DNA from: Holosporales bacterium
GTDB lineage: Bacteria; Pseudomonadota; Alphaproteobacteria; Paracaedibacterales; CANFPP01
Assembly (NCBI GenBank): GCA_947449005.1
Contig: CANFPP010000001.1
Coordinates: 8,442-72,441 of the forward strand
Length of the DNA: 64,000 nucleotides
Reading direction: 5' to 3'
The first letter of the stretch is position 1. The number at the start of each line of letters is the position of its first letter. Both the position numbers and the translations under genes were made by a program. Below are positions 14,801-39,572 of this stretch, one piece after another. Below the pieces are notes generated by a model. That model saw nothing but the letters and a program-made list of their open reading frames with translations. It did not search any database and was not told the origin of the DNA.

Positions 14801-15037
14801 AGAAAGGCAGCAGAATATAAAGTAAATACTGATACTTGGGTTAGTCCAGAGTACCAAGGAAAATTTGAATTCTTATCGAGCGATGATCAAATCTTGCTAA
14901 AGAATCATTACGAGCAGATGGTTTTGAAATTTGAACAAGATTTATTGAAATCAAGAGATACGCTTTCTGAAACTGAGAAGGCATTTGCGAGGAGAGAAGT
15001 TGGTGAATATCTGAGTGTGACTTGGTTTGTGGGATAG
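11846..15037 (+). CDS. Secreted IQ-motif / helical-repeat protein, paralog 3 (1,063 aa), with a unique C-terminal domain of about 360 aa
   Basis: Signal peptide ...LMLSLIGTSVHA/A. IQ-like IQRLYRDRKLNQTF (11954-11995). Family N-domain plus repeat modules. From about aa 700 (nt about 13943) the sequence is non-repetitive and is absent from the other three paralogs. Confidence 0.8.
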   Translation: MKMSIVKTTSTVLMLSLIGTSVHAATTYFDEKTTIKIQRLYRDRKLNQTFETLNQTSKNIKRGVVPAPTEADLEESIASLNEHSDFKSMGLPAVYFINAKKDLDIRPFIERYQGYIQSQMASRDPIRRQIASLIMAELATKAAAENDKFNTAQYFLQEAISSDYPFFKHNAYLQLSGLARDYADKNQAINCLRKGLILPNRYHASIYRKLAYVVDSEEYKPSRERYLKQIIEIGTPTEKIKALMSLAYLYGRNQSNSAFYRPSEALDIYDSLLANPQLISFLDTDNVHIQIAIIRAFSPDEEIKNVDRAVEILDGILLNRPNDWNYSNAATQLISIFITKDPARAFSLAREALSNPNLQQPFKIYIEKALADLYRHGPEGIKNPQAALQILENLAAMTFGPTFAPDYHSIVLLSLTHHLVYGDATVKNAARAIQIHEELRKDSKVKLAALIDLAHIYQHDAEHKNLLKAIEYFEEILLLHEGKPVEQFNTLIRLLSLYTTEGETLNLEKAQIIQQRISEMQPIIESNNSKESFVALQSLASLLTFGNDRVKDRGRAIQILEELSKHRESKLLSLPILVYIYEHIAEHKNPVKVTECLNKLVELYADKPLEQLKALTKLLKIYTTEGTAFSIEEAKAAVQRILTHSAVDGTARLEVQVALSKLFHLHPESGSTAEIIDVNNELAHNPMATPSDVGDAHRRLIAAYLTQRSFEQVVTTYEHFLTRAVDWQRTGVILDFISFLENPDHATVQNPARVTELRALLPQPAVFMTEELVQLPGIVAGFGGAGHVDPYFSPEMIANRKASLLALSGDHFDQVNYQTNLERTIAEVKEAIAQYGARDAEFAATAVVATEVFETGNTHPYSYRPTVQDLDYQFSIDDLGREMAYGEALVRIWARITHHPDVNHLKDLIVLQLAAAIDPDGHIVCPVGKIMRHFQAMEGTFPDVRAVTLSLENAFSGFAKNEQKLIDALPGEHPLKILESKIGEIRKAAEYKVNTDTWVSPEYQGKFEFLSSDDQILLKNHYEQMVLKFEQDLLKSRDTLSETEKAFARREVGEYLSVTWFVG

Positions 15038-18300: not shown

Positions 18301-19121
18301 ACGCTCACAGAATTTTGACAGATTTACCTGCAGAGCCGGCTCCACTTTTAAATGTGAAAATTGCTTTATCAAACTTATATTACCTTTATCCTGACCTTTC
18401 AACACCTGAGGACATAACCAGTATAAATACGGAAATTCTTAGTCGGTCTTCAGAATTGGAAGCAAACTCATCGGACTTAATTAATGCCCATAAAAGTCTA
18501 ATAGAAAACTATCACAGACAAGGAAATGTTGAAGAAGAAAAAACAACATATCTACGTCTATTCAACAGTTGTGAAAATATTTCTATACTGACTGAATGTT
18601 ATCAACAACTTATAATATTATATGCAGATCAACCCTTAGAGCAACTCAACGTATTAGCACGCTTATTAAAGAGGTATATAACTGGAGAAACGACGTTTAA
18701 TACTGAAGAAGAAAAAGCAAGAGCTCAAGAAATCTTGACCGGTTTGTCTACAGATCAAAATGTTTTAGCCGCGGACCCGACCGCATCTTTGAAAGTACAG
18801 ATTGCTTTATCGGACTTATATTATCTTCATCCTGATCTTTCAACAATTGAGGAAATAACGAGTATAAACACAGAAATAAGTCGTTGTGAAGAATTAGAAC
18901 GAGGATCAGCAGAAGTAATTAATGCTCACCAACGTTTAATAAATATTTACAAAGCACAGCAAGACTTTGTAGCTGTTCGAAAAACATACATAAGTCTCCT
19001 CAAACGCAGTAGAGGAGATAATCAAGCCTCGGCTCTTGCAGAATACAACACCTTCATTAGGGAAAATCTTACGTTAAAAAGCACACTTACAACATCTACA
19101 GAACAGAATTTGGTCTCTTGA
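15312..19121 (+). CDS. Secreted IQ-motif / helical-repeat protein, paralog 4 (1,269 aa)
   Basis: Signal peptide ...LMLSLMSTALNA/A. IQ-like IQVFYWDKKLRSLA (15432-15473). Family N-domain, then roughly six or seven copies of the 120-aa module, two with near-identical DNA. C-terminal cap is homologous to paralog 1. Confidence 0.85.
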   Translation: MKKPIIKITSTVLMLSLMSTALNAATSFIRDEEREAAASKIQVFYWDKKLRSLADELSTEAQEMGKRTAGNLALIAEEMQKNIDSLNNSNRFTSTAMLMGILLSNLEGLDTAPLLQKYQAYLERQIANGSSIQKQQASLMKVIIKNKKSNKEAELNEMRELLQETMNSPYPVFRLYAYHLLFDAAKDSGDKEAALHYLYKGMLSSKRNHARIYEELADFDNSEDYKPKKERYLKKIIKIGTPKEKAEALTKLIVLYANQNSAFYRPSDALKHYQDLISDPQLVRFLGTDNDIHIRIACLFAFSPDETVKNVEKAIETLDDILSKEPNHWNYSYATSSLISIYVSKDPARALRLALEARENPNLPEPFKTYIERSLADLYRDGPEGIKDPQAALQILENLAAMTFGPVFASDYHSNVLLSLTHLLVYGDATVKNAARAIQIHEEHRENEALKSRRLADLAYIYNYDAVHKSPVKLAECYLELIEFYADQPLEKLKVLVNLLNLYDTEGETFNPEEANSIVRRILEIQSGDSVEALEALQSWGQLLTQGTIVVKNIERTIQFYERVRRQSEFKLSSLQKLSYIYEHDSVHKNPVKLAECYLELIEFYADQPLEKLKVLVNLLNLYDTEGETFNPEEANSIVRRILEIQSGDSVESLEALRGLIQLLADGTIAVRSVERNIQLYEGLLENSEFRALSLKKLSNIYTTDPVHRNRSRALEYYLELVELYADQQIEQLKVLENLLGLYETEGDDDQEKTKSIIENILGMQSRNSVEYLETLQRLVHSLMYGNAKIRDIGKAIQILEELCTHTNFKILNLKKLSSIYEYYPIHRNLSKALECQLELVELYADQPVEQLKVLVNLLNLYDTEGETFNQIEADNIVQKIIQMQTGDSVEALEALQSWGQLLTQSTIVVKNTERTIQFYERVRRQSEFKLSSLQKLSYIYEHDSVHKNPVKLAECYLELIELYADRRLEQLDILARLLKLYIAEGMTFNTEETKANAHRILTDLPAEPAPLLNVKIALSNLYYLYPDLSTPEDITSINTEILSRSSELEANSSDLINAHKSLIENYHRQGNVEEEKTTYLRLFNSCENISILTECYQQLIILYADQPLEQLNVLARLLKRYITGETTFNTEEEKARAQEILTGLSTDQNVLAADPTASLKVQIALSDLYYLHPDLSTIEEITSINTEISRCEELERGSAEVINAHQRLINIYKAQQDFVAVRKTYISLLKRSRGDNQASALAEYNTFIRENLTLKSTLTTSTEQNLVS
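16716..18198 (+). repeat. Intragenic 360-bp (120-aa) module repeats with near-identical stretches
   Basis: 16789-16908 is identical by eye to 17149-17268. 16894-17121 is nearly identical to 17971-18198. Confidence 0.8.
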
Positions 19122-19362: not shown

Positions 19363-20145
19363 ATGTTCGCTGGAGCTATTGATCATAACAAAACTGAGCA
19401 AATGGTTGAAAGCTTGGGGGAAAGTAGCGATCTGAACGAGCTTAATATAAACATCAAAAAGATTTTTGAATCCTTTGATATAGAGAAATTTTCAATCGCA
19501 GGATACTGCGATAATGAGTTTCAAATTTTTGATACTTATCCCCCCGATTGGATGTCACATTACATTTCAAGCCAATATCATTTCCATGACCCAATCCTCT
19601 CATGGAATAAAATTCGACTCCCTTTTAGCTGGAGCAGCAATAAAATAAAAAATCTAACGCCAACACAGGAGCGTTTATTTTCAGAAGCTCATGATTTTGG
19701 AATTAATACAGGCATAACCTTATCTGTTCCCAGCCAGACTGGGCAAATATTTCTTACACTCTTGGATCATGAAAATCATCATCCTTTCGCACTGTATGCG
19801 CTTTCTTTAGCGGCTCAATCTTATTGGCACTTTACACAAATAACAAAAGCAAAGACTTTATTAAGCTTATTAACAGCGCGTGAACGTGAGATTATTTTTT
19901 TAAAAACAAAAGGATTGGCCATGAAGACCGTGGCCACAACTCTGAACATATCTGAATCAACTGTCGTTTTTCATTTAACAAATATCAAAAAAAAACTAAA
20001 AGTTTCAAATAGTGAACAAGCCCTTTTTCTTATTGGATTAGCAGTTAGCCAGTTACCAGGAAGTAATTTTCAAAACTTAGATAAAGAAAACTTTAATAGT
20101 AATGTTCACCCAGCTGCTCTTCGCTCTTCATTATTATCTTCTTGA
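19363..20145 (+). CDS. luxR: LuxR-family AHL-responsive transcription regulator
   Basis: Autoinducer-binding-domain residues (PPDWMSHYISSQYHFHDPIL...W). C-terminal HTH LTAREREIIFLKTKGLAMKTVATTLNISESTVVFHLTNIKKKL. Confidence 0.85.
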   Translation: MFAGAIDHNKTEQMVESLGESSDLNELNINIKKIFESFDIEKFSIAGYCDNEFQIFDTYPPDWMSHYISSQYHFHDPILSWNKIRLPFSWSSNKIKNLTPTQERLFSEAHDFGINTGITLSVPSQTGQIFLTLLDHENHHPFALYALSLAAQSYWHFTQITKAKTLLSLLTAREREIIFLKTKGLAMKTVATTLNISESTVVFHLTNIKKKLKVSNSEQALFLIGLAVSQLPGSNFQNLDKENFNSNVHPAALRSSLLSS

Positions 20146-20783
20146 GTATATGCGTAGATTGGTTTTACGTAAGATAGGAGAGGCTTTGTAAAATCATAAC
20201 CTAATTGTGCAAGTAGTTTTTCATAGCTTTGCCAAGAAAACACGTAGCTCGTTACCAACAACTGATTTCCATTGAAATTTCTTTCCACAACAGGTTCCCC
20301 AGAATATCCATACCGACTATACAGTTTTTTAAACGCAGGGAATGAAACAACAAGACACATTTTTACATTCTTTAACTCTAAAGAAAAATGTGCATAAGCC
20401 GCAGAAATACTGGCTGTAACGTGGCTGACCATTTGAGGCGTATAATTTTCATCAAAATTGTGATCAACAGCTAGTCTACTTTGTTCCCAGCACCCAACTT
20501 TCTTAAAATTTTCTAAGTTAGGGAGCAGAAACCTAAAGGGACCATCGAACATGCATGGATTTATCATCTCAATAAGACGAATACAACCTCTTACAATCCC
20601 GCGTTCATCTTTATAAATTATGTACGTGGCATGTTTCTCGTCATATTCATCTTTTTCCATACCGTGGTTACTTGTAACATCCCACTTTAGTTTTTCGAAA
20701 AAAACTTTATGCCGTAGACGATACATATTATCAAGGTCGTGCCTATGAAATTCATAATTACTTGGATCAATGAGAATTAGCAT
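20106..20783 (-). CDS. luxI: LuxI-family acyl-homoserine-lactone synthase
   Basis: MYRLRHKVFFEKLKWDV...EKDEYD...ATYIIY...RGCIRL...CWEQSRLAV matches conserved LuxI blocks (R..VF...L.W.V, E.D.YD, WE.SR). Convergent with luxR, and the 3' ends overlap by 40 nt. Confidence 0.85.
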   Translation of the reverse strand: MLILIDPSNYEFHRHDLDNMYRLRHKVFFEKLKWDVTSNHGMEKDEYDEKHATYIIYKDERGIVRGCIRLIEMINPCMFDGPFRFLLPNLENFKKVGCWEQSRLAVDHNFDENYTPQMVSHVTASISAAYAHFSLELKNVKMCLVVSFPAFKKLYSRYGYSGEPVVERNFNGNQLLVTSYVFSWQSYEKLLAQLGYDFTKPLLSYVKPIYAYTQEDNNEERRAAG

Positions 20784-25669: not shown

Positions 25670-26380
25670 TTAATGGGCAGTAGCTTTTGGAGCATTCGTA
25701 ACAATTGCTTTTACTTCTTTAGCTGATTTGTAGCAAGCAGTACTAAGATGTCCGATTTGACGTTTATTGTCTGGAGCAGCTAGGTCAGTTAAAGCTTTTT
25801 TAAATGAGTTAGCTACAGTCAAATAAGCATCAGAAAGTGTTTTCCAGTTTCCTGAAAGGTTTGCAGCTGTAGCTGCTGCTGTCGCTTTCTCAATGTCTTT
25901 TGTACATTTTTCAACAGCAGAAGCTCTCTTTTTCGCAAGCTTTTCAGCTTTAGCAGCTGGCAACGGAGCAGCAGCAGTTTTTGGAGCATGCTTAACAAGT
26001 GACTCTACTTCTTTAGCTGATTTTTTACATGCAGTTTCAAGATGTCCGATTTGCGGTTTGTTGTCTGGAGTTGTTAGGCCAGTTAAAGTTTGCTTCAATA
26101 AATTTGCTGCATCCAAGTAAGTACCAGCAAGCATCTTCCAATTTCCAGTAAGATTTGCAGCGGTAAGTGCAGTTGTCGCTTTACCAACGACTTGAGCACA
26201 ATGCTCTAGAGCCGCAGTTCTTTTTTTCTCAAGTTTTGCTGCTTTAGGATTTACAGCAGGAGCTACAGCAGCTGGAGTTGCAGCTGAAACTGGAGCCGTT
26301 GTTGTGGATGCTGCATAGCTTGGAAGAGCAATTGCTGTGGATAAAAGAAGAGTATAAATAGCTTTTTTCATTAAAATCAC
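25670..26380 (-). CDS. Secreted Ala-rich protein built from two tandem repeats of about 95 aa (236 aa)
   Basis: Signal peptide ...AIALPSYA/AS. Halves align: ...AANLTGNWKMLAGTYLDAANLLKQTLTGLTTPDNKPQIGHLETACKKSAKEV... versus ...AANLSGNWKTLSDAYLTVANSFKKALTDLAAPDNKRQIGHLSTACYKSAKEV... Confidence 0.65.
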   Translation of the reverse strand: MILMKKAIYTLLLSTAIALPSYAASTTTAPVSAATPAAVAPAVNPKAAKLEKKRTAALEHCAQVVGKATTALTAANLTGNWKMLAGTYLDAANLLKQTLTGLTTPDNKPQIGHLETACKKSAKEVESLVKHAPKTAAAPLPAAKAEKLAKKRASAVEKCTKDIEKATAAATAANLSGNWKTLSDAYLTVANSFKKALTDLAAPDNKRQIGHLSTACYKSAKEVKAIVTNAPKATAH

Positions 26381-30596: not shown

Positions 30597-33500
30597 ATGT
30601 TTAAATATTTTTTATTCAACAGATCTTTAATATTGCTTTCAACTGTCTCTGTAGCTGCTCTCTACACTTCAGATGCGGCTGCTGCTATGCCTGCAAACGA
30701 ACCTCCGAAATGGTATCCTGAAGCGCATGTAGACCTGAAGCAGGGAACTAAACGCGGAATCGCGCAGGTTGGAACCATAACTCCTCTTGCCCAAAACGCT
30801 ACATCTCTTGCTTATCTTGATTTGCGTTTGATGTCTGACACAAACAAAGCAAAAGAAGGAAACTTTGGTGCGGGTGGAAGATGGCTAAAAGATGGTCGTT
30901 ATATCCTGGGAATGTATGCCTTTTATGATAGACGCTATACAGAGCTTAATAACGTTGTTAATCAGGTAACTGTTGGCTCTGAAATAATGAGTGATACCTG
31001 GGATTATCGCGTAAACGTGTATGTCCCTGAGAATCTTTCAAAAACAATAGTTAAAGAAACTAAGCCAGAACAGAAGACCACCTTTGCTGGTTATACCGAA
31101 ATTCAAAAAAGCACCCAATATTTAGTAAAAGAAGTTCCCCTAAGAGGTTTAGACCTTGAAATTGGGAGAGTCATCCCAGGATTCCCTGCCCTTAGAGTCT
31201 ATGGAGCTTATTATCATTTCCAAGGACGTGATGGTGTCGAGTCTGTAATTGGTGGACGTGTCCGAGCAAATCTAAAATTAAACAAATTTTTCTCATTCGA
31301 AACAGAAGTAAGTCGCGATAACGTCAGAAAAGAAGTTGCCTTCATTGGTATGAGACTGACGATTCCGCTTAGCAAAAATGGCTATAAACCATCAACACTA
31401 ACATCGCTTGAACAACGCATGGTCGAACAGCCAATGCGAGATATTGACGCTGTTACAAATACACAGAACAATACCCAAGTCAAAAAAGACGTGATTAAAG
31501 ATAATTTGCGCCACGTAAATGAAAAAGATGATCCCCTTGCCGATGGTAGCGCTGAACATCCATATCACATAGACAAAACAGATCATCTTGTAGAGTTAGG
31601 CGAGTCAAATGAAGGCGGAGGAACTCCAGAAACTATCGTATGGCAGAATGGAGTTTTAATAAGACGCGCAGACACCACAGATTTTCTTCATGAAAAATTT
31701 GGAACTTCAATAGAAACTGCTTTAGCACTTGGAAAGTTCAAGAAAATCCTAAACAGGATACGCCTCAACAAAGAGATTGAAGCGCGTAGACTGCAAGAAG
31801 TCAAATTTGCTAAAGAAGCAGCAGAACACGAAGCGTCAACAAAAACAAAAGCAGGCAGTTTTTATGAAGCTGCAAAAGCAGCAAAAGCTGCAAAGGATTT
31901 TGCTGAAGAAGAAGAGAAATTAAAATTTGAAAAAACAAAATACGAACACTTTGAAGCACAAGTAGACTTAGAAGCGGCAAAAGAAGCAACGCGAAAAGCA
32001 GCTAAAGATGCGGAACACAAGCAACAAGCTCAGGCAGAAGCAGCCGCTAAACATTGGAAAGAAACCACTAAGAAGAACCGTTTAGAGAAAGAAAGATTAG
32101 CTAGAGAGCAGGAAGAAGCTAGACACGTTAAAGAAGAAGATGAAGCAAGGCTCGCGGCGTTAAGAAAAGAATTTGCTGATGCTCAAAAAATTAAAGAAGC
32201 CGAACAAAAAGCAAGAGATTCTGCAGCAGCTGAACAAAGACTAAAAGATGAAGAAGCACAAAGAAAACTTGTTGAAGCTGCTCAAAAATTAAAAGCAGAA
32301 CAAGACGCTGAAAATATTAGACGTGCTAATGAAGCTGAAAGAATAAGACTTAAAAAAGAAGCTGATGCCCTTCAACTCGAAAAAGAAAAAGAAGTAGAAG
32401 CTCGCCGTCAAGAAATGATTCGTCGAGCAAAGAAAATTGCTGACGAAGAAGCACGAAGAGTTGAGCTGAAGAGAATCGCTGACAAACTTATTGAAGACGC
32501 GCGCATCGCTAAGGAAATCGAAGATAAGAGAATCGCTGATAAACTCATCGAAGATGCTCGTATCGCTAAGGAAATCGAAGACAAGAGAATCGCTGATAAA
32601 CTCATCGAAGATGCTCGTATCGCTAAGGAAATCGAAGACAAGAGAATCGCTGATAAACTCATCGAAGACGCACGCATCGCCAAGGAAATCGAAGATAAGA
32701 GAATCGCTGATAAACTCATCGAAGACGCCCGCATCGCCAAGGAAATCGAAGACAAGAGAATCGCTGATAAACTCATCGAAGATGCTCGTATCGCTAAGGA
32801 AATCGAAGACAAGAGAATCGCTGATAAACTCATCGAAGATGCTCGTATCGCTAAGGAAATCGAAGATAAGAGAATCGCTGACAAACTCATCGAAGATGCT
32901 CGTATCGCTAAGGAAATCGAAGACAAGAGAATCGCTGACAAACTCATCGAAGACGCTCGTATCGCTAAGGAAATCGAAGAAAAGAGAATCGCTGATAAAC
33001 TCATCGAAGACGCACGCATCGCCAAGGAAATCGAAGAAAAGAGAATCGCTGATAAACTCATCGAAGATGCTCGTATCGCCAAGGAAATCGAAGACAAGAG
33101 AATTGCTGATAAACTCATCGAAGATGCTCGTATCGCTAAGGAAATCGAAGATAAGAGAATCGCTGATAAACTCATCGAAGATGCTCGTATCGCTAAAGAA
33201 ATCGAAGATAAGAGAATCGCTGATAAACTCATCGAAGACGCACGCATCGCCAAGGAAATCGAAGAAAAGAGAATCGCTGATAAACTCATCGAAGACGCAC
33301 GCATCGCCAAGGAAATCGAAGATAAGAGAATCGCTGATAAACTCATCGAAGATGCTCGTATCGCTAAAGAAATCGAAGATAAGAGAATCGCTGATAAACT
33401 CATCGAAGACGCCCGCATCGCCAAGGAAATCGAAGATAAGAGAATCGCTGATAAACTCATCGAAGATGCTCGTATCGCTAAGGAAATCGAAGATAAGAGA

Positions 33501-36500
33501 ATCGCTGACAAACTCATCGAAGACGCTCGTATCGCTAAAGAAATCGAAGATAAGAGAATCGCTGATAAACTCATCGAAGATGCTCGTATCGCTAAGGAAA
33601 TAGAAGACAAGAGAATCGCTGATAAACTCATCGAAGATGCTCGTATCGCTAAAGAAATCGCTTCTAAAAAAACAATCGTCGATAACTTCAGATCTTTCAC
33701 TAAAGTTAAAAAAGCTAAAGCTAAACTTGCTGAGCTTAAAACGGCTGAAGTGTTAAGACTTGAAAACGTCAGAATTGAAAAAGAAACCGCAATTAATGCT
33801 CTAAAAGACAAAGTCCTTCAAGATGCTATCGCCGCAAATCTCCTTCATGAAGCTGACGAAGAGCGTAGAACTCAAATAGATCTGCAAGTCAAAGCTGAAA
33901 AAGCAAGACTCGTTGATCTCGAAGTGGCAGCCTTAGAACAACTAAGAGCAGATGAAGATAGACTCGCTAAACTTGATGCTCAAAATGAGAAAGAAACTGA
34001 ACTCGCTGAAATCGAAGATCAAAGGCTTAAAAACAAAAAACTCAAAAAAGCTGCTCAATTAGAGAGAAGAGCACAAAGAAGAGATGCTGCTGAAGCACAA
34101 AAACTCTCTCAAGAGCAAGCAAGAGAAGAACTTGAAAGAAATAATCTCGAAATTCAAGAAACACAACAAAAACAAACTGAGAAACTTAATACAGCTAAAA
34201 CAACTGTAGCTCAAAAATTACAAGATCTCATTAAAGTTAAAAAAGCCAGAAAACAACTTCAAACAGCTCGTGACGCAGCGACAACGATTCAATCCGCTTG
34301 GAGAATGAAGTCTGATCAATCTGCTTTCAGTGATCTCAAAGATGCGGTTAAAACCCTGCAAAACAAACAGAGAATGAGCTCAGCTAAAGCGGAACTTGCT
34401 AAACTTAAAGACACTAAACTCAAAGCTGACTCAGCCACAACCATCCAATCCGCTTGGAGAATGAAGTCAGACAAAACCGCTTTCAGCGATCTTAAAGATG
34501 CGGTTACAACCCTGCAAAATAAACAGAGATTGAGTACAGCTAAAGCAGATCTGAAAGCTAAGCGCGCAGAAGAGCAACAAGCATTTTTAGATTCTCTGCT
34601 CGGTGATGAAGAAACAAATACACCAGTAAGCGAAAGTCAGAGAAGACTTAGCGCTAGTCGTTCTGTAGACAAAGCAAACTTCGTTAATACCAGAAGAGGA
34701 AACAATCCCTCGATGAACTATGATGGTTCACCAATAACAAGGGGAGCAACTTTTGAAACTTTTGATTTTGGCACCGAGGATTTTGGCTATGATGGTACTT
34801 TTGGTGACGATATTGAAGGAGAAAGAGATTTTTCAGATAAGGGCACACCTAGAGATTTAAGTGATGATGAGATGTATGTAGGAGCATTACATCACGATGA
34901 TATCTACAGTGCGCCTGGTAACGAAGAATTTGCAGTTCCAAACATAATGAAAAAAGACGGTTCTAAAGAAGGTGCTGCAGAAGCTGAGATTAAAGGCACT
35001 CGCAGCGAAAAAGAAAAAACTGCTGTAGGAACGCGACGCAATTCGGTACCAGCAACACCTACTCAAGGTAAAAAGAAATTGCAAGTACGCCGTAAATCAG
35101 ATTCAACAACAATTGAGCAGCCAAGAGAACAACAAGCATCAACACCTAACACCTCAGGACAGGTTAGTGCGATGAAGAGCAAGTTGTTTGGGCCGAAATC
35201 AGTACGCAAATCTAAAGTGACTGGTAAAGACGAGGCAGCAATGTTTAAAGCTACATTGCCAGATCTTTCTACTATGGGAAGTCGTATCGCAGGAATCGAA
35301 AAATTGCCACTTGTGGACCGTCGTGCCGCGCTCACTAGACTTACTAATGAAATACACCGAGCTGAAGAAGTATTAGCCGTTGAGATAGAAACCCGGGCTT
35401 TTGAAAAGTCACTTCCTGCTGAACGAGCAGAGCTCGCTAAATTAAAAAGTGAAATCGAGAATCTGGAGAGAATAGCAAATGCAGAGGAACGCCGAGCTCT
35501 ATCTGCCGATATCCATAAAAGACTTGATGCAAAAGCAAAAGCAGTAGAGGGAACTGTAAAACGCAGAGAGAGTTTGGGTGCTCCTGCTGTTTCAAGTACC
35601 TCTATTGCTCAAAGTGCTAAACTTGCGGCTCAAACTTCTTCCGCGGAAGCGTCAATTTTTAGCCCAGGCACAGTAAAAGCAGCAGAAGATCTTGATAGAG
35701 CGGCAAAGCTCTATGATCTATCGTTGCAAGCTTATGAAGAGGCTCAACGTGTTGACGGTGAAGATCATGGAAGTCTACCGGCAGAAGGTCCTGTTACATC
35801 AAAATCATTACAGAGAGCAAAGAAAAGACTTCCACAGAATCGATTCACAAGCCCAGATGGTATTGTATTAAGCGATGCACCAACGCCAGATATGGATACC
35901 CCAAACCTCGATGATTTAACCCCTACCCCTGTTCACCAACAAAATGTTCAGAAGAGAAGAGAGTCAATAATCGGCAAAGGCTCAGCTTTAAAAGAAGCTC
36001 ATCAGGTGTTGCATCCTCAACAAGCTCCGGCGTTAAGCCTAAATGAAGAACTTGAGTTGGAAGAAGAACATTTAGAACAAGAAATTGCTGCACCTACTTC
36101 TAGGGCGAGACAACAAACACCTAGAAAACCACAGCATATTGAGGTTCGAAAAAGTATGCTCTCTCCTGATAGTCAGTTTTCTGGGCAAGTTGATGGTAGT
36201 TCAAGTGAGTCTGCTGATGAGAATGATGAATCTGGAATATTTGACCAAGGAGTGGATGATTCATTCACAAGCCCAGGTTCACTCGCAAGTCCGACTGAGG
36301 ATGTCAGATTTGGCGCCAAAGCAAGAGCTGGGTTAGCGAAAAGAAAAACATTATTTGGCCAACCTAAAACCCCAGGTCAGCACGGACAACAAGCTTCTAA
36401 TTCAGATGATGTGTACAACTATTCTCTAGGTAGTCCTGATTTTGTGATTGAAGGAACGCCCGTAAAATCAGTAGATTTTTCCGATAGCCCAAAGGTTGAA

Positions 36501-38021
36501 GAAAAGAAAAAATCAAGCATATCAAGAGCCCTGAAAGAAAAAGTTCGCGGACTCTTTTCTAACCTCGTAGGTGTTGTAAAAGAAGAAATTGCTGAGAGAG
36601 CTGCTGAAAGGGAAGCTGCTACACGTCGCGCTGAAGAGAACAGACGATATGATGCGGAAGAAATAATCCATCTACCTCTAAGTCAAGAAGTAATTGAAGC
36701 AGCTGCAAAAGCAAAAGAAAAAGGCATGACCCGTGATCAACAACTTAGAAAGCAAGGAGCTGATTTTGCAAGGCTTCATGCAGATAGTAAAATTGTTGAA
36801 AGAAAAGTTGGCTATTCTGAAGATCCAACTGATGGTCCTTTTTATAGTTTTTCTAAAGAACTTAGAGATAGTGGCGCTCAAGATAACTTTGAAGAAAGCA
36901 ATTTTCCAAGTAAAGAATTTACAGCTTCAGTATCATTTGATCCAACAGCTGAAATAGCAATAAAGCACTTTGAAAAAGCTATAGAACTTTCTCAACAAAC
37001 ACGTGAATTGTTTGAACAGCTGGCTGTGAGAGAAAAAGAATTGAAAAAAACAATGAAGACACTTCCTCCGCTTGAACAGACTAAGTTACTTATGACCATC
37101 TTGGATGAAAGAGAAGAAGTTCGGAGAACAATCAATCAAGCATACTTAGAATATGATAGAATTAAAAGCTCAATACCTACTGAGCAAAATAATCCATTTT
37201 CTTCAAACAGCAAGGCAGACGCTAGAAGAATCTCGATCATGGGAATCCCAAGTAATGGAGTAAGTTCAGATGCACAATCTACGTCATTCTCATCAGTGTC
37301 TGAAGCGGAAGAACGAGTGAATGAATTGGATAATATTGTAACTGGCTTAAGTCACTCCAGAGCTGAAACTCATGCTCCAACAGTTCGAGCTAAAGATAGA
37401 AATGATGATGCAACTTCATCAGCTTCCAGCAAACAAGAAGAACAAGTAGATGAATTGGGTGATATTGTAACTGGTTTAAATCAACACAGAGTTCAAGCTC
37501 CTTTTCCAACAGTTCATCATCAAAAAACCAAATCTACAGATGATGATGCAGCATCATCCGTTTCTAGCATACAAGAAGAACAAGTGAATGAATTGGATGA
37601 TATTGTAGCTCACTCAAATCAACACAGAGTGCAAGCTCCTGCTGCAATAGCTCATCATCAAGCAAGCAATGATGCAGATGATGATGCTTCATCCGTTTCT
37701 AGCAAAGGAGAAGAGCAGGTAGATGAATTGGGCGATATTATAACTGGCTTAAATCAACACAGAGTGCAAGCTCATGCTGCAACATCTCCTCATCAAACAA
37801 CCCAAGAAGCAGATGATGACACCTCATCTGCTTCCAGCATAGGAGAAGAACAAGTAAATGAATTGGATGACATTGTAACTCACTCAAATCAACACAGAGT
37901 GCAAGCTCCTACTCCAACGGTTCATCATCAAAAAACTGAAGATGCAGACGATGATGATGCCTCATCTGCTTCCAGCATAGGAGAAGAACAAGTAAATGAA
38001 TGGGATGATATTGTAACTTAA
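30597..38021 (+). CDS. Giant (2,474 aa) surface protein: N-terminal inverse-autotransporter-type beta-barrel plus a coiled-coil/repeat passenger
   Basis: Signal peptide ...ALYTSDAAA/A. aa about 40-290 match recalled intimin/invasin beta-domain blocks (FGAGGRWL...ILGMYAFYDRRY...VTVGSEIMSDTWDYRVNVYVP; ...RVYGAYYHFQG; linker LTSLEQRMVEQPMRDID). The remainder is K/E/A-rich coiled coil, 21 x 19-aa repeats, two IQ-like motifs, a long low-complexity region and C-terminal 45-aa repeats. Confidence 0.85.
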   Translation: MFKYFLFNRSLILLSTVSVAALYTSDAAAAMPANEPPKWYPEAHVDLKQGTKRGIAQVGTITPLAQNATSLAYLDLRLMSDTNKAKEGNFGAGGRWLKDGRYILGMYAFYDRRYTELNNVVNQVTVGSEIMSDTWDYRVNVYVPENLSKTIVKETKPEQKTTFAGYTEIQKSTQYLVKEVPLRGLDLEIGRVIPGFPALRVYGAYYHFQGRDGVESVIGGRVRANLKLNKFFSFETEVSRDNVRKEVAFIGMRLTIPLSKNGYKPSTLTSLEQRMVEQPMRDIDAVTNTQNNTQVKKDVIKDNLRHVNEKDDPLADGSAEHPYHIDKTDHLVELGESNEGGGTPETIVWQNGVLIRRADTTDFLHEKFGTSIETALALGKFKKILNRIRLNKEIEARRLQEVKFAKEAAEHEASTKTKAGSFYEAAKAAKAAKDFAEEEEKLKFEKTKYEHFEAQVDLEAAKEATRKAAKDAEHKQQAQAEAAAKHWKETTKKNRLEKERLAREQEEARHVKEEDEARLAALRKEFADAQKIKEAEQKARDSAAAEQRLKDEEAQRKLVEAAQKLKAEQDAENIRRANEAERIRLKKEADALQLEKEKEVEARRQEMIRRAKKIADEEARRVELKRIADKLIEDARIAKEIEDKRIADKLIEDARIAKEIEDKRIADKLIEDARIAKEIEDKRIADKLIEDARIAKEIEDKRIADKLIEDARIAKEIEDKRIADKLIEDARIAKEIEDKRIADKLIEDARIAKEIEDKRIADKLIEDARIAKEIEDKRIADKLIEDARIAKEIEEKRIADKLIEDARIAKEIEEKRIADKLIEDARIAKEIEDKRIADKLIEDARIAKEIEDKRIADKLIEDARIAKEIEDKRIADKLIEDARIAKEIEEKRIADKLIEDARIAKEIEDKRIADKLIEDARIAKEIEDKRIADKLIEDARIAKEIEDKRIADKLIEDARIAKEIEDKRIADKLIEDARIAKEIEDKRIADKLIEDARIAKEIEDKRIADKLIEDARIAKEIASKKTIVDNFRSFTKVKKAKAKLAELKTAEVLRLENVRIEKETAINALKDKVLQDAIAANLLHEADEERRTQIDLQVKAEKARLVDLEVAALEQLRADEDRLAKLDAQNEKETELAEIEDQRLKNKKLKKAAQLERRAQRRDAAEAQKLSQEQAREELERNNLEIQETQQKQTEKLNTAKTTVAQKLQDLIKVKKARKQLQTARDAATTIQSAWRMKSDQSAFSDLKDAVKTLQNKQRMSSAKAELAKLKDTKLKADSATTIQSAWRMKSDKTAFSDLKDAVTTLQNKQRLSTAKADLKAKRAEEQQAFLDSLLGDEETNTPVSESQRRLSASRSVDKANFVNTRRGNNPSMNYDGSPITRGATFETFDFGTEDFGYDGTFGDDIEGERDFSDKGTPRDLSDDEMYVGALHHDDIYSAPGNEEFAVPNIMKKDGSKEGAAEAEIKGTRSEKEKTAVGTRRNSVPATPTQGKKKLQVRRKSDSTTIEQPREQQASTPNTSGQVSAMKSKLFGPKSVRKSKVTGKDEAAMFKATLPDLSTMGSRIAGIEKLPLVDRRAALTRLTNEIHRAEEVLAVEIETRAFEKSLPAERAELAKLKSEIENLERIANAEERRALSADIHKRLDAKAKAVEGTVKRRESLGAPAVSSTSIAQSAKLAAQTSSAEASIFSPGTVKAAEDLDRAAKLYDLSLQAYEEAQRVDGEDHGSLPAEGPVTSKSLQRAKKRLPQNRFTSPDGIVLSDAPTPDMDTPNLDDLTPTPVHQQNVQKRRESIIGKGSALKEAHQVLHPQQAPALSLNEELELEEEHLEQEIAAPTSRARQQTPRKPQHIEVRKSMLSPDSQFSGQVDGSSSESADENDESGIFDQGVDDSFTSPGSLASPTEDVRFGAKARAGLAKRKTLFGQPKTPGQHGQQASNSDDVYNYSLGSPDFVIEGTPVKSVDFSDSPKVEEKKKSSISRALKEKVRGLFSNLVGVVKEEIAERAAEREAATRRAEENRRYDAEEIIHLPLSQEVIEAAAKAKEKGMTRDQQLRKQGADFARLHADSKIVERKVGYSEDPTDGPFYSFSKELRDSGAQDNFEESNFPSKEFTASVSFDPTAEIAIKHFEKAIELSQQTRELFEQLAVREKELKKTMKTLPPLEQTKLLMTILDEREEVRRTINQAYLEYDRIKSSIPTEQNNPFSSNSKADARRISIMGIPSNGVSSDAQSTSFSSVSEAEERVNELDNIVTGLSHSRAETHAPTVRAKDRNDDATSSASSKQEEQVDELGDIVTGLNQHRVQAPFPTVHHQKTKSTDDDAASSVSSIQEEQVNELDDIVAHSNQHRVQAPAAIAHHQASNDADDDASSVSSKGEEQVDELGDIITGLNQHRVQAHAATSPHQTTQEADDDTSSASSIGEEQVNELDDIVTHSNQHRVQAPTPTVHHQKTEDADDDDASSASSIGEEQVNEWDDIVT
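32463..33659 (+). repeat. Perfect-register tandem repeat, 21 x 57 bp (19 aa: E[DE]KRIADKLIEDARIAKEI)
   Basis: Counted directly: 1,197 bp = 21 x 57. The units differ at nine third-codon positions. Unit 1 also differs non-synonymously in codons 1-3 (ELK). Confidence 0.95.
37299..38018 (+). repeat. C-terminal tandem repeat of about 135 bp (45 aa), about 5.3 copies
   Basis: Unit EEQV[ND]EL[DG]DI[VI]T[GH].NQHRVQAP....HHQ....DDD.SS.SS.G. The last partial unit reads EEQVNEWDDIVT-stop. Confidence 0.85.
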
Positions 38022-38087: not shown

Positions 38088-39572
38088 ATGAAAATTAAAA
38101 ATTTAATATTATTGATGTTATTGAGTTTAAGTTGCTCAATTGCCTCAGATGAGGATGACTCAGGGACTGAAATTGAAGGAGGAAAAGGTCATAATAGATT
38201 AGTAGCTAGAAAAGCTGCATCATCTTCATTTGATGCAGTTGACTTAACAGCGAAATCTAAAACTACATCAAAAATTAGAGGCATTGGCTTTACAAGTCCA
38301 GGGGTAAAGGTACCAAAAGCCGAAGTAACTATAGAGGAACTTGTTGAAACTATTAACTCCAATAATAGCATTCAAAGAAGATACCAACTGGCTCTTTTAA
38401 AAATATTAAAACAAAGCCGCTCAGCAGAAACTGATTGCAGAGGCATTAGATCTGAACTTCAAGCAATACAAGAAGACAATGAAAGAAAATCTGTTGAAAT
38501 AACAATGTTAAGAAAGACACAATCTGAGCATTTTCAGCTAAAGATGAAAGTAAAAGAGTTAGAAGCAAATAGCGCTAGTAATCAATCATTTTTAGATAGT
38601 CTTAAACAATCTTTAGAAGACGTGACAGAAACAAAGATAAGACTGCAGCAAGAGATATCCCAGCTAGAAATAAGAAATGCATTTCTTGAAACTAATTCTC
38701 AAGACCAACAAAAACTTATTCAACAGATAGATTTACTAAGAGGAAGAGTTGAAGAAGATGATGATGGCGAGGAAGACGGAGAAGCAATGTTTGGTTTTGA
38801 AGCTGATAGAATGTCTAATTCTACTGCTTCACGTTCCATTGCTCGCTCTCATTTCACTACTGGCCAATCTTCAAAAAAAGCTACGTTACTTTCTAATATC
38901 ACATATAGAGAGAGCTCTGTAAAACACAGAGAAGGTTCTATAAAACCTCCACGACCAGTAGCTCGTAATTTGGATGGATTTTTTGAAAGCATTATTACAC
39001 ATAGACCAGATTTATTTAATATACATAGAAAAGCAAGTGATTTATTTACAGGAGTTACTGATAGAAGAACCTTTGTATTAGAAACAGCACGAGGAATATC
39101 AGATACATCCAAAGCGACTTTACAAACAGCACTAACTGGTATTTCTGTGAACTTTTTTTCATCAAAAGGAAAACCAGAACTTTCAGGAGATGCAAAGAAA
39201 AAAGTCAAATCATTTACGGAGGCTTTACCAAGTTATCTATCAGGGGCTGATCTAGAATTCGCCACAAAATGTGTGGATCATGTTATTACATACTTCCTCA
39301 CGCAACAACAAAAAGACACAAGAATTACTCTCGATGACTTATATGACATACAAAAAAGTTCAGCAGGTTACACTCTTACTAATAGTGCAGTGCAGAATAA
39401 AGTATTTATGATATCATCAGGATCTATTAGAGAAAACATAATTTTCCAATTGTTTACTAACTCAGATTCGATGACTAGCTCTGAAACATTAAGTCGTTAT
39501 TGGGCTGATACAGCTTATCGCTTTTCAACACCGCAGCCTCAATCTGCCTCATCCGCTAAGGCAGACCTATAA
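38088..39572 (+). CDS. Secreted coiled-coil protein (494 aa), operon partner of the giant protein
   Basis: RBS ggagaa. Signal peptide MKIKNLILLMLLSLSCSIA/S. Central heptad-rich region, acidic EEDDDGEEDGE patch, C-terminal domain of about 230 aa with no recognisable motif. Followed by a strong terminator. Confidence 0.7.
   Translation: MKIKNLILLMLLSLSCSIASDEDDSGTEIEGGKGHNRLVARKAASSSFDAVDLTAKSKTTSKIRGIGFTSPGVKVPKAEVTIEELVETINSNNSIQRRYQLALLKILKQSRSAETDCRGIRSELQAIQEDNERKSVEITMLRKTQSEHFQLKMKVKELEANSASNQSFLDSLKQSLEDVTETKIRLQQEISQLEIRNAFLETNSQDQQKLIQQIDLLRGRVEEDDDGEEDGEAMFGFEADRMSNSTASRSIARSHFTTGQSSKKATLLSNITYRESSVKHREGSIKPPRPVARNLDGFFESIITHRPDLFNIHRKASDLFTGVTDRRTFVLETARGISDTSKATLQTALTGISVNFFSSKGKPELSGDAKKKVKSFTEALPSYLSGADLEFATKCVDHVITYFLTQQQKDTRITLDDLYDIQKSSAGYTLTNSAVQNKVFMISSGSIRENIIFQLFTNSDSMTSSETLSRYWADTAYRFSTPQPQSASSAKADL

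What the first reader, a model, noticed from the sequence alone, without database searches (positions are those of the whole stretch)
32463..33659. 21 x 57-bp in-frame repeat whose copies differ almost exclusively at synonymous sites
I aligned all 21 units by eye. Variable positions are the third bases of codons 2 (GAT/GAC/GAA), 5 (ATC/ATT), 7 and 12 (GAT/GAC), 13 (GCT/GCA/GCC/GCG), 14 (CGT/CGC), 16 (GCT/GCC), 17 (AAG/AAA) and 19 (ATC/ATA). Among units 2-21 the only amino-acid change is D to E, in 3 units. Unit 1 additionally starts ELK instead of E[DE]K and has CTT for CTC at codon 9. Two linked haplotypes (GATGCTCGTATCGCT versus GACGC[AC]CGCATCGCC) are interleaved, implying block duplications. 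Perfect peptide conservation alongside silent diversification argues for strong selection on the 19-aa unit E[DE]KRIADKLIEDARIAKEI, an amphipathic helix with a 19-residue (non-heptad) period. Silent differences may also be retained because they damp recombinational instability.
Basis: seen in the sequence. Interest (0 to 1): 0.6.

Follow-up and report, generated by a model that had tools for sequence, protein, structure and literature searches.

The report
Helical stalk repeats in giant autotransporter
The 21 near-identical 19-residue repeats are real; they probably form a long, stiff, charged helical stalk in a giant outer-membrane protein (an intimin-type inverse autotransporter) of an uncultured relative of protist symbionts, and selection has kept the peptide constant while silent DNA changes accumulated.

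Summary
Window 32463-33659 holds 21 in-frame 57-bp units. In units 2-21 every variable site is a third codon position, with 10 silent variant alleles and 1 replacement (D to E). dN/dS is about 0.02, and P is below 5e-5 even with strong transition bias.

The array lies in a 2474-aa ORF (30597-38021). Its N-terminus is an inverse-autotransporter (type Ve) beta-barrel: Pfam PF11924, and an AF2 model that best matches intimin 4E1S and invasin 4E1T. The array makes up 399 residues of a 915-residue stretch with no Pro or Gly. That stretch is predicted all-helical and is followed by two IQ calmodulin-binding motifs and an orphan, mostly disordered C-terminus.

The unit is not a continuous amphipathic helix. 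Only 6% of hydrophobic power sits at the 3.8-residue harmonic. It fits a charged single-alpha-helix-like spacer better than a coiled coil.

Close homologues in Ca. Paracaedibacter and Ca. Odyssella carry different charged helical repeats at the same place. A co-occurring strain with an identical asd gene carries a 17-aa RLEAE-type array instead.

Selection on the peptide is real but not statistically stronger than on the flanking helix. Copy number 21 is unverified, because short-read assemblies break inside the array. This is a new variant of a known kind, of moderate interest.

The parts
30597..38021 (+). Complete 2474-aa ORF: a giant inverse autotransporter (type Ve) that carries the array
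   Evidence: ORF list and translation. The exact protein is present in NCBI on a 113,998-bp contig.
30597..30686 (+). Putative Sec signal peptide (aa 1-30: MFKYFLFNRSLILLSTVSVAALYTSDAAAA)
   Evidence: Read from the sequence: basic n-region, hydrophobic core, AAA motif. The AF2 model is unstructured over residues 1-32. No dedicated signal-peptide predictor was run.
30708..31490 (+). Inverse-autotransporter beta-barrel plus linker (aa 38-298)
   Evidence: Pfam PF11924 IAT_beta at E 8.5e-17, 62 bits against a cut-off of 22.3. The AF2 barrel has pLDDT around 90 and pTM 0.67. The Foldseek top hits are intimin 4E1S (E 1e-12, TMt 0.75) and invasin 4E1T (E 4e-11), while other barrels score E of about 1e-5 and TM of about 0.3.
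31857..34601 (+). Pro/Gly-free helical stalk of 915 residues (aa 421-1335), about 137 nm if it is one helix. It comprises an ER/K-like pre-array helix, the array and a post-array helix.
   Evidence: Composition and the longest stretch free of Pro and Gly. AF2 of aa 560-1100 is all helix.
32463..33659 (+). The finding: 21 x 57 bp, encoding 21 x 19 aa of E[DE]KRIADKLIEDARIAKEI (aa 623-1021), about 60 nm as a helix
32463..32519 (+). Unit 1, the divergent edge or 'seed' unit (ELK..., CTT ATT). It is shared with the alternative allele in L012, where homology ends inside it.
   Evidence: The upstream sequence AKKIADEEARRV already resembles the unit.
34251..34562 (+). Two 52-aa duplicates, each carrying an IQ calmodulin-binding motif (cores at 34269-34310 and 34425-34466)
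   Evidence: Pfam PF00612, 2 stretches, E 7e-8, 32 bits against a cut-off of 20.3. The duplicates have dN/dS 0.38.
34602..37400 (+). Orphan middle region rich in S/T/P/G/D/E, mostly disorder-like with a few helical segments
   Evidence: Composition. The C-terminal 1200 aa have zero hits at E<=1e-3 among 1.84 billion representative proteins.
37401..38018 (+). About 4.5 C-terminal acidic 45-aa repeats (SSxSS..EEQVxELxDIVT..NQHRVQAP). They serve as an internal control, with the same dS as the array but dN/dS 0.55.
   Evidence: TRF; dN/dS and variant counts.

Best explanation
The array is the central part of a very long, rigid, charged alpha-helical stalk in the surface-exposed passenger of an inverse autotransporter.

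**Shown**
- The gene encodes a signal peptide and an intimin/invasin-type outer-membrane barrel.
- A 915-residue stretch free of Pro and Gly follows, and the 21 x 19-aa array makes up 44% of it.
- After that come two IQ motifs and an orphan C-terminal region.

**Inferred**
- The barrel exports the C-terminal passenger, as in other type Ve systems.
- The helix behaves like a charged single alpha-helix (SAH/ER-K-like) rod. It is stabilised by dense i+3/i+4 salt bridges and i/i+4 Ile/Leu contacts rather than by a coiled-coil seam.
- The rod holds the distal host-interaction modules (IQ motifs, acidic repeats) roughly 100 nm or more from the bacterial surface.

**Origin and evolution of the array**
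- The array grew by duplication of a local 19-aa segment of the pre-existing helix. Unit 1 is the unhomogenised edge copy.
- Copy number sets stalk length.
- Replacement mutations that would disturb the helix or its charge pattern are purged, at about the same intensity as in the flanking helix. Silent mutations persist and are shuffled among units by duplication or conversion. This produces the pattern of identical peptide with diverse codons.
- The reduction in perfect homology is most simply a by-product.

The organism is an uncultured alphaproteobacterium nearest to the Paracaedibacteraceae, which are symbionts of amoebae and other protists. The surface protein therefore probably faces a eukaryotic host.
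For: **Barrel identity**: Pfam PF11924, and an AF2 model that best matches 4E1S and 4E1T.

**Helical nature**: 0% Pro and Gly over aa 421-1335, and an all-helix AF2 model.

**No hydrophobic seam**: 6% of power at period 3.8 and a long-range moment of 0.10.

**SAH-type charge pattern**: 57% of residues are charged. Each unit has 10 attractive and 4 repulsive i+3/i+4 pairs. This matches the sequence criteria for SAHs in PMC5347031.

**Type Ve passengers are monomeric** (PMC6555100). This protein also lacks the periplasmic dimerisation domain, which disfavours a parallel coiled coil.

**Same architecture in relatives, with different charged helical repeats just after the barrel and linker**:
- L003: RLEAE-type 5-6-mers.
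- L002: APLEVA/ARLEEV.
- L001: 21-aa EQEERVAKELREQQEREAKQR.
- L012 allele: 17-aa LRLEAERLEAERLEKER.

**Analogy**: small Clostridium-type proteins place IEDKRIADK(V/I) repeats between a TM anchor and a globular domain.

**Purifying selection**: dN/dS is 0.02, with 10:1 silent to replacement. The C-terminal repeats of the same gene have the same dS but a 15:37 ratio.

**Local origin**: unit 1 is shared with the alternative allele, and the upstream sequence resembles the unit.

**Taxonomy**: CtrA and PmtA are encoded as neighbours. The nearest named asd is Ca. Finniella at 70%, then Ca. Paracaedibacter at 65%. Barrel homologues were found only in Ca. Paracaedibacter, Ca. Odyssella and a few MAGs.
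Against: - Ile and Leu make up 26% of the unit. That is higher than in classical ER/K SAHs and similar to coiled coils, so lateral self-association or partner binding is possible.
- Asp (3 of 19 residues) is a weaker helix former than Glu.
- A pure spacer would be expected to tolerate K/R, I/V/L and D/E swaps. Only D to E is seen, although with 11 events this is not significantly tighter than the flank.
- The AF2 single-sequence model has pTM 0.20 and says nothing about oligomeric state.
- Surface exposure, the host and calmodulin binding are all inferred.
- Copy number 21 is unverified.
Confidence: 0.55

Rival explanations
1. Non-heptad coiled-coil fibre. The units pair or bundle between neighbouring molecules, or fold back within one chain, to form a fibrous adhesin stalk like M proteins or trimeric-autotransporter stalks. 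Exact peptide identity is then needed for in-register packing.
For: - Ile and Leu make up 26% of the unit.
- A local single-unit hydrophobic moment of 1.2-1.5 at 100-110 degrees.
- An all-helix prediction.
- Strict peptide uniformity.
Against: - The alpha-compatible harmonic (3.8) holds only 6% of hydrophobic power, and its moment of 0.63 compares with about 1.9 for an ideal heptad (the 1.9 is my own hand estimate, not a tool result).
- The hydrophobic face rotates by about 100 degrees per unit.
- By my own reading of the unit sequence, not a tool result, no heptad or hendecad register is sustained.
- Type Ve passengers are monomeric, and no periplasmic dimerisation domain is present.
- The AF2 helix breaks fall at arbitrary points.
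Confidence: 0.2
2. Multivalent ligand array. Each 19-aa unit is a binding site for a host or bacterial partner, so 21 identical copies give avidity. Selection acts on the epitope itself.
For: Near-perfect peptide identity with dN/dS 0.02. The protein also carries other eukaryote-type motifs, namely IQ.
Against: - A co-occurring strain with an identical asd gene has a different 17-aa array at the same site.
- Paralogues and orthologues use unrelated charged repeats.
- The constraint is not significantly tighter than on the non-repeated flank.
- No homologous repeat was found elsewhere apart from convergent spacer-like proteins.
Confidence: 0.13
3. Assembly artefact or mis-estimated array. The 21-copy structure and the order of units are a product of assembling short reads from a mixed population.
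For: - All six independent metagenome scaffolds of the same population stop before or inside the array or at the IQ duplicates, so none spans it.
- At least two stalk alleles co-occur in samples of the same project, GROS21-1.
- The spanning contig could not be retrieved for inspection.
Against: - Units 1-4 are reproduced base for base in L009, and units 1-2 in L010.
- The reading frame is kept for 7.4 kb.
- All k-mers of 114 or longer are unique, so the array is resolvable at k=127.
- Variation is confined to third codon positions, which chimeric assembly would not create.
Confidence: 0.07
4. Silent-site diversity is itself selected, to stabilise copy number against RecA or slippage-mediated deletion.
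For: Silent differences reduce the longest perfect tract from 1140 to 113 bp and the MEPS-weighted homology about 4-fold.
Against: - The order of units is no better than random permutations (P about 0.5).
- 160 in-register tracts of 25 bp or more and 41 of 50 bp or more remain.
- Several silent sites never vary, namely GAA at codons 1, 11 and 18, AAG at codon 3 and AAA at codon 8.
- Neutral persistence of silent mutations under purifying selection explains the pattern without this extra assumption.
Confidence: 0.05

Closest known systems
Inverse autotransporters (type Ve secretion): intimin, invasin, FdeC, YeeJ
   Same: An N-terminal signal peptide is followed by a PF11924 beta-barrel and linker, then a C-terminal passenger. 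The barrel model superposes best on 4E1S and 4E1T. Passenger length is varied through the number of repeated modules.
   Different: Known passengers are strings of Ig-like (Big), FN3-like and lectin domains (PMC4943183, PMC6555100). Here no Big or lectin domain is detected. The passenger is instead a helix of about 915 aa free of Pro and Gly, followed by IQ motifs and an orphan, disorder-like tail. There is no LysM or periplasmic domain. Barrel identity to the nearest relatives is only 41-48%, and there is no sequence-level PDB hit.
Charged single alpha-helices (SAH / ER-K helices) of myosin VI/X, INCENP, drebrin and CAF-1; also TolA domain II in bacteria
   Same: The sequence is highly charged, lacks a hydrophobic seam and has dense i+3/i+4 opposite-charge pairs. 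Its role would be a stiff spacer or lever between functional modules (PMC5347031, PMC4183817). It adjoins IQ motifs, as in myosin necks (the myosin comparison is from my own knowledge).
   Different: The unit has far more Ile and Leu (26%) and Asp than classical SAHs. It is an exact 19-aa tandem repeat rather than a degenerate sequence. It is anchored to a bacterial outer-membrane barrel. The order is helix then IQ, the reverse of myosins. A monomeric state has not been tested.
Tandem-repeat surface proteins whose units are peptide-identical but codon-diverse, such as the Plasmodium CSP NANP 'repeat allotypes' and the staphylococcal Clf/Sdr Ser-Asp repeats (own knowledge; the CSP literature was located but not read)
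   Same: The repeats are conserved at the peptide level with silent nucleotide variants. These variants are shuffled by slippage or unequal exchange, and copy number varies among strains.
   Different: Those units are short (2-4 aa) and disordered or turn-forming, and they are immunodominant. This unit is a 19-aa helical module in a protein of a bacterium related to protist symbionts.
Small Clostridium-type membrane-anchored proteins with IEDKRIADK(V/I) repeats (P0005, P0007, P0008, P0010)
   Same: They share almost the same 9-10-aa half-unit (IEDKRIADKx), placed as a linker between a membrane anchor and a distal domain.
   Different: The E-values are only 2.5e-8 to 8e-4. The repeats are 9-10 aa and degenerate, the proteins are from Firmicutes, and there is no barrel. 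This is most likely convergence on a simple helical design.

Membership tests
Inverse autotransporter (type Ve, intimin/invasin family) | PF11924 IAT beta-domain above Pfam's gathering score | tested here: met
   E 8.5e-17, 62.1 bits against a cut-off of 22.3, at aa 45-211. Homologues P0001-P0004 carry a precomputed PF11924 annotation.
Inverse autotransporter (type Ve, intimin/invasin family) | Beta-barrel fold like the intimin and invasin translocators | tested here: met
   The AF2 model has pTM 0.67 and barrel pLDDT of about 90. The Foldseek top 3 hits are 4E1S, 5G26 and 4E1T, with E from 1e-12 to 4e-11 and TMt 0.74-0.75. The next barrels have E of about 1e-5 and TM of about 0.3. The strand count was not verified to be exactly 12.
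Inverse autotransporter (type Ve, intimin/invasin family) | Inverted order: signal peptide, N-terminal barrel, C-terminal passenger | tested here: met
   The order is read directly from the translation: signal-like N-terminus at aa 1-30, barrel at aa 38-298, and 2170 further residues.
Inverse autotransporter (type Ve, intimin/invasin family) | Passenger built of Ig-like (Big/FN3) domains, often with a lectin-like tip | tested here: not met
   There are no Big_1, Big_2, Intimin_C or FN3 hits in Pfam. Only IQ and a sub-threshold HTH_62 were found. The passenger is helical or disorder-like. This is a typical feature of the family rather than one that defines the secretion type.
Inverse autotransporter (type Ve, intimin/invasin family) | Periplasmic LysM or dimerisation domain (optional) | tested here: not met
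   The barrel starts about 10 residues after the signal peptide, and there is no LysM hit.
Inverse autotransporter (type Ve, intimin/invasin family) | Passenger exported and displayed on the cell surface | not testable with these tools
   This needs protease shaving or immuno-EM.
Charged single alpha-helix (SAH / ER-K) | Rich in E, K and R, with many i+3/i+4 opposite-charge pairs | tested here: met
   57% of residues are charged (E+D 31%, K+R 26%). Each 19-aa unit has 10 attractive and 4 repulsive i+3/i+4 pairs. The criteria are from PMC5347031. The caveat is that 3 of the 6 acidic residues are Asp.
Charged single alpha-helix (SAH / ER-K) | No hydrophobic seam | tested here: met
   6% of hydrophobic power lies at period 3.8, and the long-range moment is 0.10 at 100 degrees. 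However, Ile and Leu make up 26% of the unit, which is unusually high.
Charged single alpha-helix (SAH / ER-K) | Monomeric, highly helical, weakly cooperative melt | not testable with these tools
   AF2 gives an all-helix model but carries no information on oligomeric state.
Alpha-helical coiled coil (heptad, hendecad or 19/5) | Periodic hydrophobic core positions at 3.5-3.8 residues per turn, sustained along the array | tested here: not met
   The harmonic analysis shows the dominant periods are 4.75 and 3.17.
IQ calmodulin/light-chain-binding motif (PF00612) | Match above the gathering score | tested here: met
   Two stretches at E 7.1e-8, 32 bits against a cut-off of 20.3. The sequence is IQSAWRMKSD[QK][ST]AF.
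IQ calmodulin/light-chain-binding motif (PF00612) | Binds calmodulin or a myosin light chain | not testable with these tools
   This needs a pull-down or overlay assay.

The most novel reading that the evidence does not exclude
The protein is a bacterial, outer-membrane-anchored mimic of a myosin neck. A single-alpha-helix tether of roughly 100-140 nm has its length set by repeat copy number. It presents IQ motifs, and possibly other short linear motifs, to capture host calmodulin or myosin light chains at a fixed distance from an intracellular symbiont. Several stalk alleles (19-aa and 17-aa arrays) would be maintained in one population. This would define a Paracaedibacteraceae-specific class of all-alpha 'effector-on-a-stick' inverse autotransporters. 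The syntenic Ca. Paracaedibacter symbiosus gene carries poly-proline tracts instead.
Probability: 0.15. Interest if true: 0.75.

Novelty: new variant of a known kind. Interest (0 to 1): 0.45.

Why it matters
**Secretion.** Type Ve autotransporters are described as exporters of Ig-like and lectin passengers whose sequential beta-sandwich folding drives secretion. A small clade in protist-symbiont relatives instead carries long, charged, all-helical tandem-repeat passengers. This widens what the pathway is thought to export and raises the question of how a helix of about 900 residues is threaded and folded.

**Host interaction.** The stalk sits next to IQ motifs. That gives a concrete, testable hypothesis for host-factor capture by an uncultured symbiont lineage with almost no characterised surface proteins.

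**Evolution.** Peptide-identical, codon-diverse units, together with alternative stalk alleles in one population, make a clean natural example of length-modular helix evolution under purifying selection.

**Limits.** The silent-only variation is itself an ordinary signature of purifying selection. It is not a new mechanism.

Tried and rejected
**Searches that found nothing useful**
- Homologues of the repeat peptide: only weak hits (E >= 2.5e-8) to convergent Clostridium-type spacer proteins.
- Exhaustive HMMER search with the C-terminal 1200 aa: zero hits.
- PDB sequence searches with the barrel profile and with the stalk: zero hits. A fold search was needed to link the barrel to intimin and invasin.
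- Literature: no paper on Paracaedibacter autotransporters or on helical type Ve passengers was found.

**Searches for orthologues and copy number**
- Genome and metagenome scans for orthologues with the same array found only 8 distant loci, none with the 19-aa unit.
- Copy-number comparison across assemblies failed. All independent scaffolds end at or in the array or at the IQ duplicates. The spanning NCBI contig could not be retrieved.

**Tests that came back negative**
- Higher-order block structure in the array: no significant lag.
- Selection on unit order to minimise homology: no signal.
- The 494-aa downstream ORF as a conserved partner, by analogy with ZirS and ZirU: no similarity to the ORFs downstream of the homologues.
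- WH2 motif in the syntenic Ca. P. symbiosus passenger: not supported by Pfam. Only the poly-proline tracts are certain.
- The antisense and +2-frame ORFs across the array (32408-33811 on the minus strand, 32491-33603 on the plus strand) were rejected as by-products of a stop-free repeat. Variation is confined to third positions of the main frame.

**Uninformative**
- The 63-bp repeat in L001 is too short and is interrupted by an N run, so it was not usable for dN/dS.

Full report
**1.

Window 32463-33659 is exactly 21 units of 57 bp, in frame with the ORF at 30597-38021. TRF finds period 57, 20.9 copies, 94% matches and no indels.

Among units 2-21 there are nine variable columns, and all are third codon positions. 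They give 10 synonymous variant alleles and one replacement, GAT/GAC to GAA (D to E), in units 10, 11 and 15. Unit 1 is the outlier, with ELK, CTT, ATT and GCG.

Nei-Gojobori values for units 2-21 are pS 0.27, pN 0.006 and dN/dS 0.018. The chance of at most 1 replacement among 11 events is 9e-7 with equal rates and still 5e-5 with a transition bias of 10.

These are T-T-T-T and C-[AC]-C-C at columns 36, 39, 42 and 48. Pairwise Fisher p values among columns 36, 42 and 48 are 2e-4 to 4e-3.

**2. What carries the array**

The ORF encodes 2474 aa.

- **Barrel.** Residues 45-211 match Pfam PF11924 (inverse-autotransporter beta-domain) at E 8.5e-17, well above the gathering score. An AF2 model of residues 1-330, built on five homologues, gives a confident barrel. 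Its best PDB matches are the intimin (4E1S, E 1e-12, TMt 0.75) and invasin (4E1T) translocators. These are far ahead of porins and classical autotransporter barrels, which score E of about 1e-5 and TM of about 0.3.
- **No periplasmic domain.** There is no LysM or other periplasmic domain.
- **Helical stalk.** After a linker, residues 421-1335 contain not a single Pro or Gly. This 915-residue stretch comprises an ER/K-like helix, the 399-residue array and a further helix. AF2 predicts all helix for residues 560-1100, but with pTM 0.20 and helix breaks at arbitrary places, so it says nothing about tertiary or quaternary structure.
- **IQ motifs.** Two 52-aa duplicates follow, each with an IQ calmodulin-binding motif (PF00612, E 7e-8, 32 bits against a cut-off of 20.3).
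- **Orphan tail.** The remaining roughly 1100 residues are rich in S/T/P/G and acidic residues and end in about 4.5 acidic 45-aa repeats. The last 1200 aa have no detectable relative among 1.84 billion representative proteins.

**3. Organism and relatives**

The neighbouring genes encode CtrA, a PmtA-like methyltransferase, Asd and an M23 peptidase, which marks an alphaproteobacterium. GC content is about 39%.

The nearest named Asd proteins are Ca. Finniella inopinata (70%) and Ca. Paracaedibacter symbiosus (65%). Barrel homologues at 41-52% identity exist only in three Ca. P. symbiosus paralogues, a Ca. Odyssella MAG and a few metagenome fragments. From my own knowledge, these taxa are obligate symbionts of amoebae and other protists. 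That this organism shares the lifestyle is an inference.

**4. The family context is informative**

In the relatives, the region just after the barrel and linker is again a charged helical tandem repeat, but a different one each time:

| Locus | Repeat |
|---|---|
| L003 | RLEA[EAV]-type 5-6-mers |
| L002 | APLEVA / ARLEEV 6-mers |
| L001 | 21-aa EQEERVAKELREQQEREAKQR |

The Ca. P. symbiosus gene that shares the downstream M23 peptidase (47% identity) has poly-proline tracts instead.

Scaffold L012 comes from another sample of the same project, GROS21-1.

- Its asd is identical to the window's, and the first 526 bp of the barrel differ at one base.
- Divergence rises toward the array, reaching dS 0.063 in the pre-array helix, with mismatches piling up in the last 500 bp.
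- Homology ends inside unit 1.
- A 17-aa array follows, LRLEAERLEAERLE[NK]ER, encoded by 51-bp units. That array shows three silent variable sites and one replacement.

Alternative stalk alleles therefore co-occur in samples of the same project. Unit 1 is the ancestral edge copy, and the sequence just upstream (AKKIADEEARRV) already resembles the unit. The array is thus a local expansion of a pre-existing helix.

**5. Structure class**

- For an exact 19-residue repeat, the only alpha-compatible harmonic is 19/5 = 3.8. It carries 6% of hydrophobic power.
- The dominant periods are 4.75 (40%) and 3.17 (28%).
- The long-range hydrophobic moment at 100 degrees is 0.10.
- Locally each unit is moderately amphipathic, but the hydrophobic face rotates about 100 degrees per unit.
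- The unit is two half-units, IEDKRIADKL and IEDARIAKE.
- It is 57% charged, with 10 attractive and 4 repulsive i+3/i+4 charge pairs.

These properties are the sequence criteria for single alpha-helices: charged, no seam, dense intrahelical salt bridges (PMC5347031). Type Ve passengers are monomeric (PMC6555100). The main reservation is the 26% Ile/Leu content, which leaves room for lateral association or a partner.

The only database relatives of the repeat are small Clostridium-type proteins with IEDKRIADK(V/I) repeats between a TM anchor and a globular domain. These are probably convergent spacers.

**6. How strong and how special is the selection?**

Within the same gene, the C-terminal 45-aa repeats have the same dS (0.34) but dN/dS 0.55, and the IQ duplicates have dN/dS 0.38. 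Counts of silent to replacement variants compare as follows:

| Region | Silent : replacement | Fisher p against the array |
|---|---|---|
| 19-aa array | 10:1 | - |
| C-terminal repeats | 15:37 | 2e-4 |
| IQ duplicates | 16:25 | 0.005 |
| Pre-array helix, between strains | 17:9 (dN/dS 0.14) | 0.22 |

The array therefore differs significantly from the other repeats but not from the flanking helix. The simplest reading is ordinary purifying selection on a structural helix. It is made conspicuous because tandem duplication lays many copies side by side.

**7. Recombination damping**

Silent differences shorten the longest perfect in-register tract from 1140 bp, for a perfect array, to 113 bp. 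They cut MEPS-weighted homology about 4-fold. However, 160 tracts of 25 bp or more remain, and the observed unit order is no better than random orders (P about 0.5). Several silent sites never vary. No higher-order block periodicity is detectable. I treat damping as a by-product, not a demonstrated adaptation.

**8. Assembly status**

- Units 1-4 are reproduced exactly in L009, and units 1-2 in L010.
- Every independent scaffold of this population ends before or within the array or at the IQ duplicates.
- The spanning contig was not retrievable.
- All k-mers of 114 or longer are unique, so the array is assemblable at k=127.
- The figure of 21 copies still needs long reads.

**9. Verdict**

It is best explained as the length-modular core of a single-helix-like stalk in an atypical, all-alpha inverse autotransporter from an uncultured relative of the Paracaedibacteraceae. 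The pattern of identical peptide with silent DNA variation is a classical signature of purifying selection with unit turnover.

Novelty lies in the passenger architecture, and possibly in the combination of stalk and IQ motifs. It does not lie in the repeat-evolution phenomenon.

Noticed in passing
window 34251-34562 (IQ cores 34269-34310 and 34425-34466): There are two eukaryote-type IQ calmodulin-binding motifs (IQSAWRMKSD[QK][ST]AF) in a bacterial outer-membrane protein, directly after the long helix. Pfam PF00612 scores 32 bits against a cut-off of 20.3. The arrangement recalls a myosin neck. From my own knowledge, Legionella SidJ also uses an IQ motif.
   Followed up: partly
L012 4280-4516 (ENA ERZ19565889 scaffold_6613), equivalent to window 32463 onward: A strain with an identical asd gene carries a different stalk allele. 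It has one unit-1-like copy, then 51-bp units encoding 17 aa (LRLEAERLEAERLE[NK]ER). Divergence from the window rises toward the array, which suggests recombination or allele replacement.
   Followed up: yes
L012 2678-2962: In that same scaffold the barrel is interrupted after residue ~175 by about 286 bp of AT-rich sequence that includes a run of 10 N. It could be a scaffolding artefact, an insertion or a pseudogene.
   Followed up: no
window 37401-38018: There are about 4.5 acidic 45-aa C-terminal repeats (SSxSS..EEQVxELxDIVT..NQHRVQAP), with dN/dS 0.55. Only the last copy, at the extreme C-terminus, reads NEWDDIVT. This is an acidic W-x-x-I pattern resembling an ATG8/LC3-interaction motif. 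That reading is a speculative resemblance and was not tested.
   Followed up: partly
L004 9827-11575 (Ca. Paracaedibacter symbiosus PRA9): The IAT gene that shares the downstream M23 peptidase has a passenger with two poly-proline tracts and a WH2-like stretch (LLNQIRERRPL). This hints at actin-machinery mimicry. Pfam does not call a WH2 domain.
   Followed up: partly
L001 9953-13374 (Ca. Odyssella MAG): The IAT barrel ORF (391 aa) stops, and a 743-aa ORF starts 15 bp later. That second ORF carries 21-aa ER/K repeats and an N-masked gap. It is either a split or frameshifted passenger or a two-gene arrangement.
   Followed up: no
window 19363-20783: There is a convergent, slightly overlapping LuxR-type and LuxI-type (autoinducer synthase) gene pair, identified from the Pfam calls on the identical metagenome scaffold. 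Quorum-sensing genes are unexpected in a symbiont-like genome.
   Followed up: no
window 15312-19121 (repeat at 16689-18214) and 11846-15037: Two further giant orphan ORFs of 1269 and 1063 aa lie here. The first contains a tandem repeat of 4.2 x 360 bp (120 aa) at 71% identity. Only weak TPR, Sel1 and HEAT-like hints were found.
   Followed up: no
window 25677-26247 (minus-strand ORF 25670-26380): There is a 294-bp tandem duplication (1.9 copies, 75% identity) inside a 236-aa ORF with no family assignment.
   Followed up: no
window 38088-39572: A 494-aa orphan ORF sits between the IAT gene and the M23 peptidase. It is absent from the syntenic Ca. P. symbiosus locus and has no similarity to the ORFs downstream of the homologous IATs in L001 and L002. 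Those two ORFs also looked similar to each other when I read their translations, but I did not align them.
   Followed up: partly
P0005, P0007, P0008, P0010 (Clostridium-type proteins): These small proteins have an N-terminal TM anchor, a run of degenerate IEDKRIADK(V/I) repeats and a C-terminal globular domain. The repeat is nearly the same half-unit as in the array. This apparent convergent helical spacer motif may deserve its own description.
   Followed up: partly
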